Part shown: piece by piece, positions 991 through 9,135 of the stretch
Position numbering within the stretch: the stretch's first letter is position 1
How the letters are laid out: the number at the start of each line of letters is the position of its first letter
Source: an uncultured virus (IMG/VR IMGVR_UViG_3300021962_000002)
Lineage: Duplodnaviria > Heunggongvirae > Uroviricota > Caudoviricetes
Direction: 5' to 3' (one strand)
IMG/VR virus record: IMGVR_UViG_3300021962_000002
DNA length: 20,000 nt
The notes under the pieces: generated by a model
What the model saw: the letters and a program-made list of their open reading frames with translations, nothing else
Told to the model about the DNA's origin: nothing
Databases searched by the model: none
Position numbers and translations under genes: made by a program

Positions 991-1002
991 AATGATTAAA
1001 AG

Positions 1003-1076
1003 CGCCCTGAGCAAGATTCGAACTTGCAACCACTGACTTAGAAGGTCAATGCTCTATCCAATTGAGCTATCAGGGC
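1003..1076 (-). tRNA. tRNA-Arg (anticodon TCT), CCA not encoded
   Basis: Minus strand GCCCTGATAGCTCAATTGGATAGAGCATTGACCTTCTAAGTCAGTGGTTGCAAGTTCGAATCTTGCTCAGGGCG. Acceptor stem GCCCTGA/TCAGGGC, D arm GCTC/GAGC, anticodon loop CTTCTAA, T arm GCAAG-TTCGAAT-CTTGC. Confidence 0.96.
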
Positions 1077-6371: not shown

Positions 6372-6683
6372 TAAGCCATGCTTAAATCGGCTTATAGAGA
6401 GGTATAGACGCACAGTGTTTTTGCCGTAACCCTAAGTAATTACGGATGGATGAGGCACGGTAGTACAGAATAACTGTTAGGAGAGATGTTGATATACCAA
6501 TGGATTTTATGTTTTAGCCCCGAGTAGAGCCAAAACAATCTGTATTGGTATTGATCTTTCCAGTAATCACAATGTATTCCCCTTTGCCTGTTCTCAAACC
6601 ACTAAGGCAACTAAGATTGATCTTGTTTTTGCCTGCTGTTCTTGTGTGGATAGAGAGTAGGATAGTGTTAATTAGGGTAACAC
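6372..6683. repeat. Cluster of inverted repeats in non-coding DNA
   Basis: TAAGCC/GGCTTA 6372-6394; CCGTAA/TTACGG 6424-6445; long imperfect IR 6473-6564; AGGCAA..AAGAT/ATCTT..TTGCCT 6605-6634; GTGTTA/TAACAC 6665-6683. Confidence 0.65.
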
Positions 6684-6685
6684 CC

Positions 6686-6722
6686 AAGACAACGCCCCAA
6701 TTTAGTTGGCTAAACTGAGGCG
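6686..6722 (-). terminator. Probable intrinsic terminator whose apex is the 14-bp motif (copy 2)
   Basis: Minus strand CGCCTCAGTTTAG-CCAA-CTAAATTGGGGCG (13 bp including two G-U) then TTGTCTT, just after the stop at 6736. Confidence 0.65.
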
Positions 6723-6735
6723 CTGGTATTGGAGG

Positions 6736-6918
6736 CTATAGACGAGTAACGTCTAGTGGGGGAAGAACACTATGATCTTTTAACCTTATTGGTAACTTGA
6801 CCATAAGGATCACTCTATCCCAAACCTTCTTCTTTACAGGAAGAGAAAGTAAGTATTGAGTTGCGTTCTCCACTGCGTTTGCGTGGCTATTCTGTTTGCG
6901 TTGTTTATCGTATTTCAT
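6736..6918 (-). CDS. Small hypothetical protein (60 aa) downstream of the hammerhead
   Basis: Start context ACACATATGAA is identical to that of ORF 7252. Followed by a terminator. Confidence 0.55.
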   Translation of the reverse strand: MKYDKQRKQNSHANAVENATQYLLSLPVKKKVWDRVILMVKLPIRLKDHSVLPPLDVTRL

Positions 6919-6944
6919 ATGTGTATATGTTATTGCAGTCTGAT

Positions 6945-6994
6945 GACCTCATCAGTGCGCTCATTAAGCACAGACCCCCGAAGGAGTTTCGGTC
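6945..6994 (-). ncRNA. Type II hammerhead ribozyme
   Basis: Minus strand GACC-GAA-ACUCC-UUCG-GGGGU-C^UGUGCUU-AAU-GAGCGCA-CUGAUGA-GGUC. Core CUGAUGA and GAAA, GUC cleavage triplet, stem III with a cUUCGg loop, 7-bp stem I, open stem II GACC/GGUC. Confidence 0.92.
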
Positions 6995-7003
6995 TATTCT
7001 TTC

Positions 7004-7252
7004 TTACCAGTTACGATCTATTAAACAACGCTTGATGATCTCTGCCATAGTCTCGTTAATCTCATTGATTGCATGATTGATAAAGCCAGCGCCCGAACCC
7101 ATTCCTGCTCTGACGTTGCGACAATCAGCTTCATGTCTTTCTTCAAACGGGAATGATCCCTTTGGTAACAGCGCTATCAATCCATCCTTCCTTGCTTGAA
7201 GTTGATTGATTGCTTCTGCTGCTGTGATTGGTAGTTGTAATGTAGTATTCAT
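7004..7252 (-). CDS. Small hypothetical protein (82 aa) upstream of the hammerhead
   Basis: ATG with the leader ACCAACAACACACACAT. The stop is about 10 nt before the ribozyme. Confidence 0.65.
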   Translation of the reverse strand: MNTTLQLPITAAEAINQLQARKDGLIALLPKGSFPFEERHEADCRNVRAGMGSGAGFINHAINEINETMAEIIKRCLIDRNW

Positions 7253-7407
7253 ATGTGTGTGTTGTTGGTATAGTCTGAGGGGCGGCGGGTGTCACCTGAC
7301 TCCCCTACTCCGCAGTATCGACTACACAGATGGAACAGAACGTTTGTGAAAAAATTCTCGTAAAAAAAATTCTTGAGTGAAAATAAATGATGGGTTAATT
7401 AGACGCC

Positions 7408-9135
7408 ATGGATAAGTATGGATACAATTGGCCGACTGGTGTAAATCAGTTGACGATTGAGTTATGGTGCTATGCGCATAGAAAGTGCAGTGTTGAGGAG
7501 AAGTGGGATCACTTCAAGAATGTGGTTGATTTGGCGTTTAACTGTGATGGGAGTGTAAGGAGGGTTATTTGGAATAAGTGGACGAATAAGATGATTCGTA
7601 GTGCTATTGGTGATGGGGGGAAGAAGAGGTTTTTGGGAATTGCGGGATGTTCGTCTAGTGGCAAGAGTGATGGCTTTGCCTTGTATGCATTGGTGGAGTT
7701 TTGGAGTCGGCCAGCAGACACATATGTGTTTGTTATGAGCACGACTAAGGCTGACGCTAGGAAAAGGATTTGGAGGAGTGTTACGCAGTTGTATGCACAG
7801 GCACAAAGGATGGGATGTCCTGGAAAGTTAGTGGATAGCCTTGGAGTAATTCAGGGCGTAAACAAGTTAGGGAAACTGACAAGGAACAGTGGCATTGAGC
7901 TTGTGGCAGCAGGTAAGGCTGAAGCTGGAGAAGCTAGTAGTGGATTGATTGGTATTAAGAGTCCGAATGTTGTTGTGATTGCTGATGAGATGCCAAACCT
8001 TGGAGAGGGTATTTTGGAAGCAGCGTGGGACAACCTTACGTCCAATGATCGGGTGTTCTTTGGTGGATTGGGTAACCCGAATTTATTTAGTGATCCATTT
8101 GCTGATTTGTGCGAGCCAGTTGGTGGGTGGGCTACAATTACGGAACAAGATGAGGAATGGAAAACAAAGTATGGAATGTGTATTCGCTTTAATGCTGAGT
8201 TAAGTCCACGGATTACAGAGCCTGATGGAGAGAAGTATTTTTGGCAACCAGATCAAATGTATTGCGACAGGATTGCAGACGCTAGAGGTGGTAAGAGAAG
8301 TAGAGGATACTATCGTTTCGTTAAAGCTTTCTGGTGTCCAGAAGGTGCTGGAAATACAATTTACCAAGAAAGTGAGTTCATTGTGAACAATGCAATGGAG
8401 GATCAAGAGCCTGAATGGGAGGGGACGCCGATTGTAATTACGGCGCTAGATCCTGCATTTACCCGTGGAGGTGATAGGGCTTACGCTGGTGTTGCAAAGA
8501 TTGGTAAAGTTGGTGGGCGCGATCATCTTCATATTTGTCAGTATAGGGGGTTAGTAGAGGATACTTCTGACAAGAAGAATCCATTATCTCATCAATTGGT
8601 GATACAATGGAAGGAATTGGCTACAGACTGGGGTGTTACACCATACAGAGCTACGCTAGACGGTACAGGGAGCGGTATTAGCTTTGGGCATATAGTTGAT
8701 GCGCTTTGGAGTCCTGCTGTCTCTAAAGTCAATTTTAGCTCAAAGGCTTCAGGTAGAAAAGCATTCTTCCGTGGCAAAGAAATTGAGTATTACAACAAGA
8801 ACAGCGAGTTATGGATTCAACCAAAAGAGTTTATTCGTGGTGGTCAGATTACTGGCGTGAGCAAGGAGTTGATGAAGGAACTTTGCACACGACAATACTA
8901 TTCAAAAGAAACTGCTAAGTTGCGCGTAGAAAGCAAAGATGAACATAAAAAGAATAACAATGGAGAGTCTTGTGACATTGCAGATATGTTCTTAATGTTA
9001 GTAGATAAATCCATTGCTTTAGGAATGTTTCATTCTGAAGAAGTCAAGAATGTCAGTAAGGTAACTGGCAAGAATTGGAGTAGATTAGTTAAGAAAAAGC
9101 AAATTAATGCTTGCTGTGGAAGAAAATTGAGGTAA
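7408..9135 (+). CDS. terL: Terminase large subunit
   Basis: Walker A GCSSSGKS, Walker B VVVIADE, GNP coupling motif, nuclease motifs ALDPAFTRGGD and CDIAD. Directly upstream of a portal-sized ORF. Confidence 0.9.
   Translation: MDKYGYNWPTGVNQLTIELWCYAHRKCSVEEKWDHFKNVVDLAFNCDGSVRRVIWNKWTNKMIRSAIGDGGKKRFLGIAGCSSSGKSDGFALYALVEFWSRPADTYVFVMSTTKADARKRIWRSVTQLYAQAQRMGCPGKLVDSLGVIQGVNKLGKLTRNSGIELVAAGKAEAGEASSGLIGIKSPNVVVIADEMPNLGEGILEAAWDNLTSNDRVFFGGLGNPNLFSDPFADLCEPVGGWATITEQDEEWKTKYGMCIRFNAELSPRITEPDGEKYFWQPDQMYCDRIADARGGKRSRGYYRFVKAFWCPEGAGNTIYQESEFIVNNAMEDQEPEWEGTPIVITALDPAFTRGGDRAYAGVAKIGKVGGRDHLHICQYRGLVEDTSDKKNPLSHQLVIQWKELATDWGVTPYRATLDGTGSGISFGHIVDALWSPAVSKVNFSSKASGRKAFFRGKEIEYYNKNSELWIQPKEFIRGGQITGVSKELMKELCTRQYYSKETAKLRVESKDEHKKNNNGESCDIADMFLMLVDKSIALGMFHSEEVKNVSKVTGKNWSRLVKKKQINACCGRKLR

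What the first reader, a model, noticed from the sequence alone, without database searches (positions are those of the whole stretch)
6945..6994. Type II hammerhead ribozyme between two small counter-oriented phage ORFs
Seen: the minus strand reads GACC GAA ACUCC UUCG GGGGU C^UGUGCUU AAU GAGCGCA CUGAUGA GGUC. Every core nucleotide and all three stems are present, and the G-U pairs and cUUCGg loop work only on this strand. It fills most of the 85-nt gap between ORF 7252-7004 and ORF 6918-6736. Known: this is the hammerhead consensus with stem II open, cleaving after GUC (between 6973 and 6972). Hammerheads are reported in phage and bacterial intergenic regions, mostly with unknown function. Inference: the phage splits a bicistronic transcript without a host RNase. 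This gives an upstream mRNA ending in a UUCG hairpin and a downstream 5'-OH mRNA with a 54-nt leader. I could not find the tertiary loop contact that speeds natural hammerheads.
Basis: partly seen in the sequence, partly recalled or inferred. Interest (0 to 1): 0.9.

Follow-up and report, generated by a model that had tools for sequence, protein, structure and literature searches.

The report
Compact hammerhead ribozyme between phage genes
A small self-cutting RNA of a well-known kind, a hammerhead ribozyme, sits between two tiny genes of an uncultured aquatic phage, and related phages carry other kinds of self-cutting RNA at the same spot, so the cut itself seems to be what matters.

Summary
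The minus strand at 6994-6945 has every hammerhead core nucleotide and three helices in type II topology, with cleavage predicted after C6973.

It is not chance. A generic type II descriptor hits once in the window and once in 3000 simulated windows. A covariance model built from 38 independent compact type II hammerheads of viral contigs scores it 63.3 bits over its full length. The three substitutions in a 96%-identical relative all keep base pairs.

It belongs to a compact subclass with a 4-bp stem II and a 17-nt stem I hairpin. This subclass has no pseudoknot, and Rfam's RF02276 mostly scores it below threshold.

The strongest functional evidence is comparative. I examined 19 related contigs with enough flank. 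Eighteen carry a self-cleaving ribozyme on the same strand of this operon: 2 hammerhead, 8 pistol, 6 twister-P5 and 2 twister-P1-like. In 14 of them it lies in the same slot after the first gene.

Cleavage itself is not shown. A competing hairpin, CUGAUGA/UCAUCAG, may damp it.

Verdict: a genuine new member of a known kind. The biology matches the published but unproven idea of polycistronic mRNA processing. Interest is moderate to low.

The parts
6945..6994 (-). Type II hammerhead ribozyme, from the 5' strand of stem II to the 3' strand of stem II
   Evidence: Sequence. Only hit of the generic descriptor. Model R1 matches 6998-6939 at 63.3 bits, full length.
6991..6994 (-). Stem II 5' strand GACC. 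It pairs with GGUC at 6948-6945. This is the open helix, including G10.1-C11.1.
   Evidence: A6993>G in relatives keeps the pair as G.U. The outer two pairs of this helix covary in the family, but stem II of 4 bp or more was my selection rule for that set.
6987..6990 (-). Core GAA (6990-6988) plus A15.1 (6987)
   Evidence: Invariant in alignment A1.
6974..6987 (-). Stem III hairpin, 5 bp with a UUCG loop. It would form the 3' end of the upstream cleavage product.
   Evidence: G6976>A in relatives turns U.G into U-A.
6972..6973 (-). Predicted cleavage site: after C6973 (C17 of GUC) and before U6972
   Evidence: Position in the family consensus. Cleavage was not measured.
6956..6972 (-). Stem I hairpin, 17 nt: 7 bp including two G.U pairs, with loop AAU. 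U6966 matches a nearly invariant U of the subclass.
   Evidence: The 17-nt length is shared by 30 of 38 compact members. U is present in 35 of 38. U6970>C in relatives gives C-G.
6949..6955 (-). Core box CUGAUGA
   Evidence: Invariant in A1.
6940..6955 (-). Competing hairpin: CUGAUGA pairs with the tail UCAUCAG (spacer GG). This sequesters the core and the stem II 3' strand.
   Evidence: Present in the MFE fold. The hammerhead fold is 3.4 kcal/mol above the MFE, the second largest gap among 40 compact members. The same ATCAG tail is in 4 of 109 unique family sequences.
6995..6995 (-). A immediately 5' of stem II, nearly invariant in the subclass. It is a candidate partner in a non-Watson-Crick tertiary contact.
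   Evidence: A in 35 of 38. The preceding column is T in only 15 of 38, so it is not simply part of a stop codon. The role is inferred.
7004..7252 (-). ORF82, the first gene of the leftward operon. Its stop codon TAA is at 7006-7004.
   Evidence: Relatives at 88-99% identity. No Pfam or PHROG family.
6736..6918 (-). ORF60, the next gene. Its ATG lies 54 nt after the cleavage site.
   Evidence: Relatives at 67-95% identity. No Pfam or PHROG family.
6931..7003 (-). Variable cassette that holds the hammerhead. Homology to relatives breaks on both sides of it.
   Evidence: blastn: L004 homology ends at 7002. L003 homology ends at 7004 and resumes at 6930. A contig of run X4 breaks at 7004.

Best explanation
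The minus strand 6994-6945 encodes a genuine type II hammerhead ribozyme of a compact subclass. This subclass has a 4-bp open stem II, a 17-nt stem I hairpin, a short stem III with a tetraloop, and no pseudoknot.

Proposed mechanism: the ribozyme is transcribed within the leftward operon that starts in the divergent region 7253-7407. The RNA folds into the three-way junction and cuts itself after C6973. The upstream product is ORF82 mRNA ending a few nucleotides past its stop codon, in the stem III UUCG hairpin with a 2',3'-cyclic phosphate. The downstream product starts with 5'-OH U6972, carries the stem I hairpin at its 5' end, and has a 54-nt leader before ORF60. The cut separates the first cistron from the rest, so their stabilities or translation can differ.

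Shown: the motif, its fit to an independent family model, covariation in the family, pair-keeping variation in close relatives, and replacement by other self-cleaving ribozyme classes at the same slot in related phages.

Inferred: that transcription runs through it, that it cleaves in vivo, and what the cut does to the two mRNAs.
For: (1) All core nucleotides and three helices are present.

(2) The generic descriptor gives 1 hit in the window against 1 hit in 3000 simulated windows.

That gave 109 unique sequences. All 109 have 5 or more contiguous stem III pairs, and 97 of 109 have 6 or more contiguous stem I pairs. Neither stem was part of the pattern.

(4) For the 38 compact members (window and its close relative excluded), 97.9% of cells are paired. 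There are 124 cells with changes on both sides against 35.9 in shuffles, and slid controls give 33-42% paired.

(5) Model R1, built from those 38, scores the window 63.3 bits (E 3.7e-16) over model positions 1-62 of 62. The next best hit in the window scores 13.9 bits.

(6) The 96%-identical relative differs at 3 of the 50 positions. All three are in stems and all keep pairing; the core is unchanged. The same three sites vary in different combinations in DNA runs X4, X10 and X16.

(7) The window shares subclass-specific features outside the core: the 17-nt stem I segment (30 of 38), A 5' of stem II (35 of 38) and U at stem I position 7 (35 of 38).

(8) Slot evidence: 19 distinct related contigs have 599 nt or more upstream of the 575-aa ORF. 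Eighteen carry a self-cleaving ribozyme on the leftward strand: 2 hammerhead, 8 pistol, 6 twister-P5, and 2 twister-P1-like below the gathering score but with E of 4e-10 and 5e-7. In 14 of the 18 it lies 410-500 nt from that ORF's start, right after the first leftward gene.

(9) Family context: 76 of 107 unique hammerheads have the stop codon of a frame of 50 or more codons starting 3-7 nt before CCGAAA, against 37 of 1895 random positions. In 89 of 107 a start codon follows within 45 nt.

(10) Other type II hammerheads have been shown active in vitro and in vivo (passages read).
Against: - No cleavage data exist for this RNA. The one RNA-library run laid (X19) gave a single contig at 7122-7264, about 90% alike, and nothing on the ribozyme. 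Contigs cannot show RNA ends in any case.
- Rfam does not call it. There is no hammerhead at gathering score in the window. On 6850-7100 there is only a mis-registered Hammerhead_3 match at 19 bits. RF02276 finds nothing at E<=10 in the close relative G001.
- The nearest-neighbour MFE is not the hammerhead fold. A hairpin between the CUGAUGA box and the tail UCAUCAG is 3.4 kcal/mol better (4.1 in the relative). In 31 of 40 compact members the hammerhead fold is the MFE.
- No Watson-Crick tertiary contact is present: the longest loop I x flank run is 3. Activity at physiological Mg2+ could therefore be slow.
- R1's training set was fetched with a pattern taken from the window's own core and helix-I base. 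Part of the 63 bits is therefore circular, and R1's E-values are rough.
- Only two contigs of this phage group carry the hammerhead, and they are 96% identical. Lineage-specific covariation is therefore limited to three one-sided changes.
- No convincing promoter was found.
Confidence: 0.8

Rival explanations
1. The motif is a real hammerhead by descent, but here it is attenuated or conditionally active. The tail UCAUCAG (6946-6940) pairs with the CUGAUGA box and the stem II 3' strand, holding most molecules in an inactive fold. Cleavage would then be slow, kinetically gated during transcription, or switched by a factor that opens the hairpin. Alternatively the hairpin forms only after cleavage and caps the 3' product.
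For: The competing hairpin is in the MFE structure. The window and its relative have the two largest energy gaps among 40 compact members. The tail is kept in the 96% relative and recurs in two otherwise diverged family members, L126 and L032. That is more than a random 5-mer would be expected to do, so it hints at a function.
Against: Nearest-neighbour energies ignore the tertiary stabilisation of the hammerhead junction. A gap of 3-4 kcal/mol is modest. Eight other compact members also have non-zero gaps. The other ribozymes in this slot give no sign of a need for regulation. There is no experimental handle here.
Confidence: 0.15
2. The region works as plain RNA hairpins without self-cleavage, for instance as a 3' stabiliser, a host RNase site, a protein-binding site, or a terminator acting on the plus strand. 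The hammerhead-like core would then be incidental or decayed.
For: Three consecutive hairpins fold well on the minus strand. The plus strand gives a terminator-like hit at 6978-6992 with a T-rich tail. One relative, L003/L147, has only a long hairpin of about 25 bp in the slot and no Rfam match.
Against: All 11 invariant core nucleotides are intact, and also unchanged in the relative. The element fits a hammerhead model end to end. There is no U-run after any minus-strand hairpin. No plus-strand gene lies upstream that would need a terminator. Relatives place three other self-cleaving classes in this slot, not generic hairpins.
Confidence: 0.04
3. The motif is a chance match to the hammerhead consensus with no biological role.
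For: The generic descriptor has a false-positive rate of about 1 per 3000 windows, so a scan of very many windows will produce some chance hits. Rfam's curated models do not reach threshold.
Against: Subclass-specific features outside the descriptor are all present. The R1 score is 63 bits. The three substitutions are pair-keeping and none falls in the core. The element sits exactly in an intercistronic slot that relatives fill with other ribozymes.
Confidence: 0.01

Closest known systems
Type II hammerhead ribozymes of bacteria and phages (Rfam RF02276; Perreault et al. 2011, PMC3088659, passages read)
   Same: Same core, same permuted topology (stems I and III capped, stem II open), and the same GUC cleavage triplet. 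The helix-I base UCUG...CACUGAUGAG matches the Rfam consensus line. The setting is also the same: an intergenic region between small phage genes.
   Different: It lacks the pseudoknot between loop I and the 3' tail that the paper reports for most type II members, and which I recover in 55 of 69 non-compact family members. Stem II has 4 bp instead of 3, and stem I is a fixed 17-nt hairpin. RF02276 scores this subclass at 25.7-38.3 bits for 7 of 10 members tested (1 of 10 reaches the gathering score of 37) and misses 3 of 10 at E<=1. It does not report the window's copy at all.
Pistol (RF02679) and twister (RF02684, RF03160) self-cleaving ribozymes
   Same: They occupy the same intercistronic slot of the same operon in related phages, on the same strand, and usually start within 6 nt of the upstream stop codon. 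The published observation that different ribozyme classes share gene neighbourhoods is quoted in the review PMC6765202 (passage).
   Different: They have unrelated folds and sequences, so they are functional analogues and not relatives.
RNase III processing hairpins between early genes of T7-like phages (recalled from general knowledge; not checked in any call)
   Same: Both would cut a polycistronic phage transcript at an intercistronic site, leaving a hairpin at the 3' end of the upstream mRNA. One relative, L003/L147, has a hairpin of about 25 bp in this very slot.
   Different: The hammerhead needs no host enzyme and leaves 2',3'-cyclic phosphate and 5'-OH ends rather than 3'-OH and 5'-phosphate.
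Hammerheads in intergenic or 5' UTRs of fungal RNA viruses (PMC13725137, passages read)
   Same: A hammerhead fills a short intergenic UTR just upstream of the next ORF and creates the 5' end of a downstream RNA.
   Different: Those are type I motifs in eukaryotic RNA virus genomes, linked there to translation initiation. Here the motif is type II in a DNA phage.

Membership tests
Hammerhead ribozyme | Conserved catalytic core: CUGAUGA box, GAA, the A15.1-U16.1 pair, and a non-G at position 17 | tested here: met
   All are present at 6955-6949, 6990-6988, 6987/6974 and C6973. The same columns are invariant in 38 family members.
Hammerhead ribozyme | Three helices around the core, supported by covariation | tested here: met
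   Helices of 4, 5 and 7 pairs. In the family, 97.9% of cells are paired, with 124 double-sided change cells against 35.9 shuffled. In this lineage, 3 of 3 substitutions keep pairing.
Hammerhead ribozyme, type II | Stems I and III closed by loops, stem II open-ended | tested here: met
   The order of elements along the strand is stem II 5', GAAA, stem III hairpin, C17, stem I hairpin, CUGAUGA, stem II 3'.
Hammerhead ribozyme, type II | Pseudoknot of 4 or more bp between loop I and the tail 3' of stem II. The paper reports this for the majority, not all. | tested here: not met
   The longest Watson-Crick run in the window is 3. The compact subclass as a whole shows no enrichment (2.67 against 2.61 +/- 0.13 with swapped tails), while the other subclass does (4.17 against 2.98 +/- 0.10). 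This feature is typical of the family but not defining.
Hammerhead ribozyme, type II (Rfam RF02276) | Score at or above the curated gathering threshold of 37 bits | tested here: not met
   No hit at gathering score. No RF02276 hit reported on 6850-7100. No match at E<=10 in G001. This is an operational threshold. Members with the same architecture score 25.7-38.3 bits.
Hammerhead ribozyme | Site-specific self-cleavage giving 2',3'-cyclic phosphate and 5'-OH ends | not testable with these tools
   Only contigs were available for laying, and the RNA run does not cover the site.
Compact type II subclass (defined here) | 4-bp stem II, 17-nt stem I segment, A 5' of stem II, U at stem I position 7 | tested here: met
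   The window has all four. Frequencies in the 38 members are 30/38, 35/38 and 35/38. R1 scores the window 63.3 bits.

The most novel reading that the evidence does not exclude
The slot behind the first cistron of this phage group's leftward operon may be a cassette junction. There, four unrelated self-cleaving architectures (hammerhead II, pistol, twister-P5, twister-P1-like) and one long hairpin replace each other, and homology breaks exactly at the ribozyme's edges.

These ribozymes abut the upstream stop codon. The stop starts 3-7 nt before the ribozyme in 76 of 107 hammerheads, and the gap is 6 nt or less for 11 of 15 ribozymes in the relatives. Together this could mean that phage ribozymes are portable modules for making mRNA 3' ends coupled to translation termination. 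A terminating ribosome would cover the 5' strand, so folding and cutting would be gated by translation of the upstream gene. The modules would travel with, or mark the borders of, exchangeable gene cassettes.
Probability: 0.2. Interest if true: 0.6.

Novelty: new member of a known kind. Interest (0 to 1): 0.35.

Why it matters
What phage-encoded self-cleaving ribozymes are for is still an open question (reviews read). On its own this hammerhead adds one more example.

The useful part is the natural series around it. Closely related phages carry a hammerhead, a pistol, a twister or a plain long hairpin in one and the same intercistronic slot. That argues that the cut, and not the particular RNA, is selected. 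It also offers matched constructs for testing what cleavage does to the two flanking mRNAs.

There is a practical point for annotation as well. Rfam's type II model under-calls a compact, pseudoknot-free subclass that is common in viral contigs.

Tried and rejected
- Rfam at gathering score on the whole window found only a tRNA.
- Rfam by E-value on 6850-7100 gave only a mis-registered Hammerhead_3 match (19 bits, E 0.11) and a meaningless lncRNA hit.
- RF02276 on the close relative G001 gave nothing at E<=10.
- blastn of 6500-7400 against GenBank phages found no match.
- The window's own assembly is not held.
I replaced it with the narrower pattern.
- The pseudoknot search found none for the window or its subclass. 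A 4-bp AUGA/UCAU pairing is possible only if stem II is shortened to 2 bp. I dropped it because the outer stem II pairs covary in the family.
- RNA evidence: one RNA-library run (X19) was laid. Its single contig covers 7122-7264 at about 90% likeness and not the ribozyme. Contigs cannot show ends or strand, so this counts neither for nor against cleavage.
- Habitat labels of runs with small shares were not used.
- Promoter scan of 6400-7500: 3 weak sites against 2.7 expected, so uninformative.
- The plus-strand terminator-like hit at 6978-6992 was rejected as the main reading, because no plus-strand gene lies upstream.
- The other R1 hits in the window (13.9 bits or less) lack stems I and III and are noise.
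- Pfam and PHROGs gave nothing for ORF82 and ORF60.
- Rfam by E-value on the L003 slot gave nothing.
- Dataset S1 of Perreault et al. is held only in cut form, and its type II section starts beyond the cut. I could therefore not check whether the compact subclass is already in their alignment.

Full report
**What is there.** Read on the minus strand, 6994-6945 is GACC GAA A CUCC UUCG GGGG U C UGUGCUU AAU GAGCGCA CUGAUGA GGUC. This gives:
- a 4-bp open stem II (6994-6991 with 6948-6945, including the G10.1-C11.1 pair);
- the core GAA plus the A15.1-U16.1 pair;
- a 5-bp stem III capped by UUCG;
- C17 at 6973;
- a 17-nt stem I hairpin (7 pairs, two of them G.U, with loop AAU);
- the CUGAUGA box.

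The element lies in the 85-nt gap between ORF 7252-7004 (82 aa) and ORF 6918-6736 (60 aa). Both ORFs are on the minus strand, so they are co-oriented with each other and with the ribozyme and are not counter-oriented. The predicted cut between 6973 and 6972 leaves a 54-nt leader before the ORF60 start.

**Is it more than chance?** I wrote a generic type II descriptor: CUGAUGA, GAA, A15.1/U16.1, non-G17, stem I of 5 bp or more, stem III of 4 bp or more, stem II of 3 bp or more. It finds this site and nothing else in the window, and 1 hit in 3000 first-order Markov simulations of the window on both strands. That rate would still give tens of false hits over a very large scan, so I looked for family evidence.

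Rfam does not help directly:
- At gathering score the window holds only a tRNA.
- By E-value on 6850-7100 only a mis-registered type III match appears, at 19 bits and E 0.11.
- RF02276 finds nothing at E<=10 in the nearest relative G001.

**The family.** I searched the viral contig collection for the core plus the helix-I base (CCGAAA, 10-16 nt, GTCTG, 12-22 nt, CACTGATGAGG). The tool gives no chance expectation for collection scans.
- There are 109 unique sequences, including the window and its relative.
- All 109 have 5 or more contiguous stem III pairs.
- 97 have 6 or more contiguous stem I pairs.
- Stem II has 3 bp in 65, 4 bp in 39, 5 bp in 4 and 2 bp in 1.

None of these pairs was in the pattern, so these are real hammerheads.

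They fall into two architectures. One has a 3-bp stem II, a long loop I and a tail complementary to it. Its mean longest Watson-Crick run is 4.17, against 2.98 +/- 0.10 when tails are swapped among members, and 55 of 69 members have 4 bp or more. This is the pseudoknot published for type II hammerheads (Perreault et al. 2011, PMC3088659, passages).

The other is compact: a 4-bp stem II, a stem I segment of 17 nt in 30 of 38 members, and no excess complementarity to either flank (2.67 against 2.61 +/- 0.13). The window belongs to the compact class.

I hand-picked 10 loci of each class for an Rfam scan. RF02276 scores 9 of the 10 pseudoknot members above its gathering score of 37 bits (45-63 bits; one at 30.7). 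Only 1 of the 10 compact members reaches it: six more score 25.7-34 bits, and three are not reported at E<=1.

**Fit of the window to the compact class.** I aligned 38 compact members, excluding the window and its close relative. With the hammerhead structure imposed:
- 97.9% of 606 cells are paired.
- 124 cells have changes on both sides, against 35.9 +/- 4.3 in shuffles.
- Sliding the partners by 1-3 columns drops pairing to 33-42%.

Stem II of 4 bp or more was my selection criterion, so its 100% pairing holds by construction. Stems I and III were not selected for.

A covariance model built from this alignment (R1) matches window 6998-6939 on the minus strand at 63.3 bits, E 3.7e-16, over model positions 1-62 of 62. 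The next best hit in the 20 kb scores 13.9 bits and lacks stems I and III.

Caveats: the training set was fetched with a pattern derived from the window's own conserved nucleotides, so part of the score is circular, and R1's E-values are rough.

Independent of the pattern, the window carries the three nearly invariant non-core features of the class:
- A directly 5' of stem II, in 35 of 38 members (A6995 in the window). The preceding column is T in only 15 of 38, so this A is not merely part of a stop codon.
- U at the 7th nucleotide of the stem I segment, in 35 of 38 (U6966). Its partner varies: G in 23, A in 8, T in 7.
- A directly 3' of stem II, in 26 of 38 (A6944).

[quoted passage not shown] This contact is an inference and has not been tested.

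**Variation in this lineage.** The nearest relative (G001 = L001/L002/L007/L024/L139) is 96% identical over 601 nt. It differs at three of the 50 positions:
- A6993>G turns A-U into G.U in stem II.
- G6976>A turns U.G into U-A in stem III.
- U6970>C turns U.G into C-G in stem I.

The core is unchanged. Contigs of three DNA runs show the same three sites in different combinations: X4 has 6976; X10 has 6970 and 6976; X16 has all three. Of the 40 differences listed over 6600-7400, these are the only ones inside 6945-6994, but 15 further differences were not shown by the tool. All three are one-sided transitions, so this is consistent with structural constraint but is not strong evidence on its own.

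**The neighbourhood and the slot.** The window is a phage-like contig with proteins of almost no known family:
- a weak terminase-like match for the 575-aa ORF 7408-9135 (phrog_2, E 5.6e-4);
- a tail chaperone match and a baseplate/lysozyme match further right;
- nothing in Pfam for six ORFs.

Small minus-strand ORFs run leftward from 7252, and the large plus-strand ORFs run rightward from 7408. Homology to relatives breaks exactly around the ribozyme (blastn):
- L004 matches window 8699-7002 at 82% and then diverges.
- L003 matches 8736-7004, then has 832 nt of its own, and resumes at window 6930.
- In run X4 one contig carries the hammerhead form and another breaks at 7004 into the L003-type sequence.

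I then fetched relatives of the 575-aa ORF from viral contigs (17 loci) and metagenome contigs (8 loci). I scanned 15 and 8 of them with Rfam and R1. L153 and L155 have no upstream DNA and were left out. L142/L157 and L161 have under 450 nt upstream and show nothing.

That leaves 19 distinct contigs with 599 nt or more upstream. Eighteen carry at least one self-cleaving ribozyme, always on the leftward strand:
- Hammerhead: 2 (L156, which is 100% identical to the window, and L139).
- Pistol: 8 (55.5-64.7 bits against a gathering score of 34.5).
- Twister-P5: 6 (53-56.5 bits against 37.6), plus two more copies in one of the pistol contigs, L148.
- Twister-P1-like: 2 (L160 at 54.3 bits, E 3.7e-10; L149 at 43.6 bits, E 4.5e-7). 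Both are below the gathering score of 67.2, but the twister core aligns.

In 14 of the 18 the ribozyme lies 410-500 nt from the start of the 575-aa ORF, directly after the first leftward gene. In the other four it lies at 600-961 nt (coordinates). The contigs are not independent lineages, and several are near-identical.

The one contig without a ribozyme (L147 = L003) has a hairpin of about 25 bp that includes the stop codon (-43.7 kcal/mol for 107 nt, z -3.8) and no Rfam match at E<=1. It looks like a substrate for a double-strand-specific RNase. That reading is a recalled analogy to T7 early-mRNA processing and was not tested.

Four unrelated self-cleaving architectures in one orthologous slot argue that RNA cleavage at this place is the selected property. 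It is already in print that different ribozyme classes share gene neighbourhoods, for reasons still unknown (PMC6765202, passage). This phage group is a clear orthologous-slot case of that pattern.

**Context rule in the hammerhead family.** Among 107 unique hammerheads (window and relative excluded):
- In 76, the stop codon of an open frame of 50 or more codons starts 3-7 nt before CCGAAA, so it abuts or overlaps the 5' strand of stem II. The control is 37 of 1895 random positions in the same loci.
- In 92, such a stop lies within 3-15 nt.
- In 89, a start codon of a frame of 40 or more codons follows within 45 nt.

In the window the ORF82 stop starts 14 nt before CCGAAA and the ORF60 ATG follows 28 nt after GAGG. 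For the ribozymes in the related phage contigs, the gap from stop to ribozyme is 6 nt or less for 11 of 15. The main text of Perreault et al. does not contain the words 'stop codon' (0 occurrences). My search for hammerhead, intercistronic, phage, ribozyme and stop codon listed no paper on this, judged from titles and abstracts only. I therefore cannot say whether the abutment has been described.

**How it most likely works.** Transcription of the leftward operon runs through the ribozyme. The junction folds as soon as GGUC (6948-6945) emerges, and the RNA cuts itself after C6973.
- The ORF82 mRNA then ends in the stem III UUCG hairpin with a cyclic phosphate.
- The rest of the operon's RNA begins with 5'-OH U6972 and the stem I hairpin.
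- The fates of the first cistron and the remainder become independent.

This is the published suggestion for prophage hammerheads, and it is inferred here. The effect of a 5'-OH end on decay depends on the host's RNases (recalled, not checked), and the host is unknown.

One feature argues for caution. The tail UCAUCAG (6946-6940) is the exact complement of the CUGAUGA box, and the resulting hairpin is part of the MFE fold. The hammerhead fold is 3.4 kcal/mol above the MFE in the window and 4.1 in the relative. These are the two largest gaps among 40 compact members, and 31 of the 40 have the hammerhead fold as their MFE. The same ATCAG tail occurs in two otherwise diverged members, L126 and L032, making 4 of 109 unique sequences. 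That suggests the tail is tolerated or useful, perhaps as a brake or as a cap that forms on the 3' product after cleavage. I cannot decide between these.

**What is not shown.** No RNA data bear on the site. The only RNA-library contig laid covers 7122-7264 at about 90% likeness. Type II hammerheads elsewhere have been shown to cleave in vitro and in cells (PMC3088659; PMC8782182, abstract and passages). This copy, and the compact class as I define it, have not been tested as far as I could see. The type II part of the 2011 supplementary alignment lies beyond the stored cut, so the compact class may already be in that dataset.

**Verdict.** The site is a genuine type II hammerhead and a new member of a known kind, in the kind of place where such ribozymes are known to occur. 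Three points go beyond a routine confirmation:
- the compact, pseudoknot-free subclass that Rfam under-calls;
- the stop-codon abutment;
- the natural series of interchangeable ribozymes in one slot of one phage group.

Noticed in passing
L143-L146, L148, L150, L158, L162 (for example L004:1771-1841 +): Pistol ribozymes (RF02679, 55.5-64.7 bits) on the leftward strand of the operon in relatives of this phage; in six of the eight contigs they lie directly behind the first leftward gene (L148 and L162 lie further out). In L004 the pistol lies 33 nt after the stop of the ORF82 homologue, and homology to the window ends there.
   Followed up: partly
L140, L141, L151, L152, L154, L159; L148:728-781 and L148:185-245: Twister-P5 ribozymes (RF02684, 49.6-56.5 bits) in the same operon. 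L154 has two. L148 has a pistol plus two twisters within 1.8 kb, each a few nucleotides after a stop codon.
   Followed up: partly
L160:685-736 (-), L149:1347-1401 (-): Twister-P1-like matches below Rfam's gathering score (54.3 and 43.6 bits against 67.2). They have very low E-values and an aligned twister core but lack the model's P3 hairpin. They may be a shortened twister variant that Rfam thresholds miss.
   Followed up: partly
L003:1744-1800 (+): In the one relative without a recognised ribozyme, the slot holds a near-perfect hairpin of about 25 bp that includes the ORF82 stop codon, with no U-run after it and no Rfam match. It could be an RNase III-type processing site or an unrecognised element.
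   Followed up: partly
L013-L138 (family-wide): In 76 of 107 unique type II hammerheads, the stop codon of a long upstream frame starts 3-7 nt before CCGAAA, so the stop abuts or overlaps stem II. A start codon follows within 45 nt in 89 of 107. I found no mention of this in the papers I searched.
   Followed up: partly
L088, L031, L041, L014, L070 flanks: Second hammerheads (RF02276, 32-57 bits) lie 300-600 nt from the one that was fetched. This is the clustered arrangement around single small genes described in 2011.
   Followed up: no
window 1002-1076 (-): A tRNA-Arg gene with anticodon TCT (Rfam 70.4 bits; ARAGORN) lies among the leftward small ORFs.
   Followed up: no
window 6919-6935 and 7253-7270 (-): Both ORF82 and ORF60 are preceded by a similar A/C-rich ...ACACAUAUG context with no Shine-Dalgarno-like purine run. 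This may hint at a host that does not rely on SD pairing.
   Followed up: no
run X16, record 5, laid on window 6944-6996: A 151-nt contig matches only the hammerhead, with 9 differences, and has unrelated flanks that match the L055/L063-type compact hammerhead. A different phage with the same subclass therefore occurs in that lake sample.
   Followed up: no
window 6978-6992 (+): The complement of stem II/III gives a terminator-like hairpin with a T-rich tail on the plus strand. No plus-strand gene lies upstream of it.
   Followed up: no
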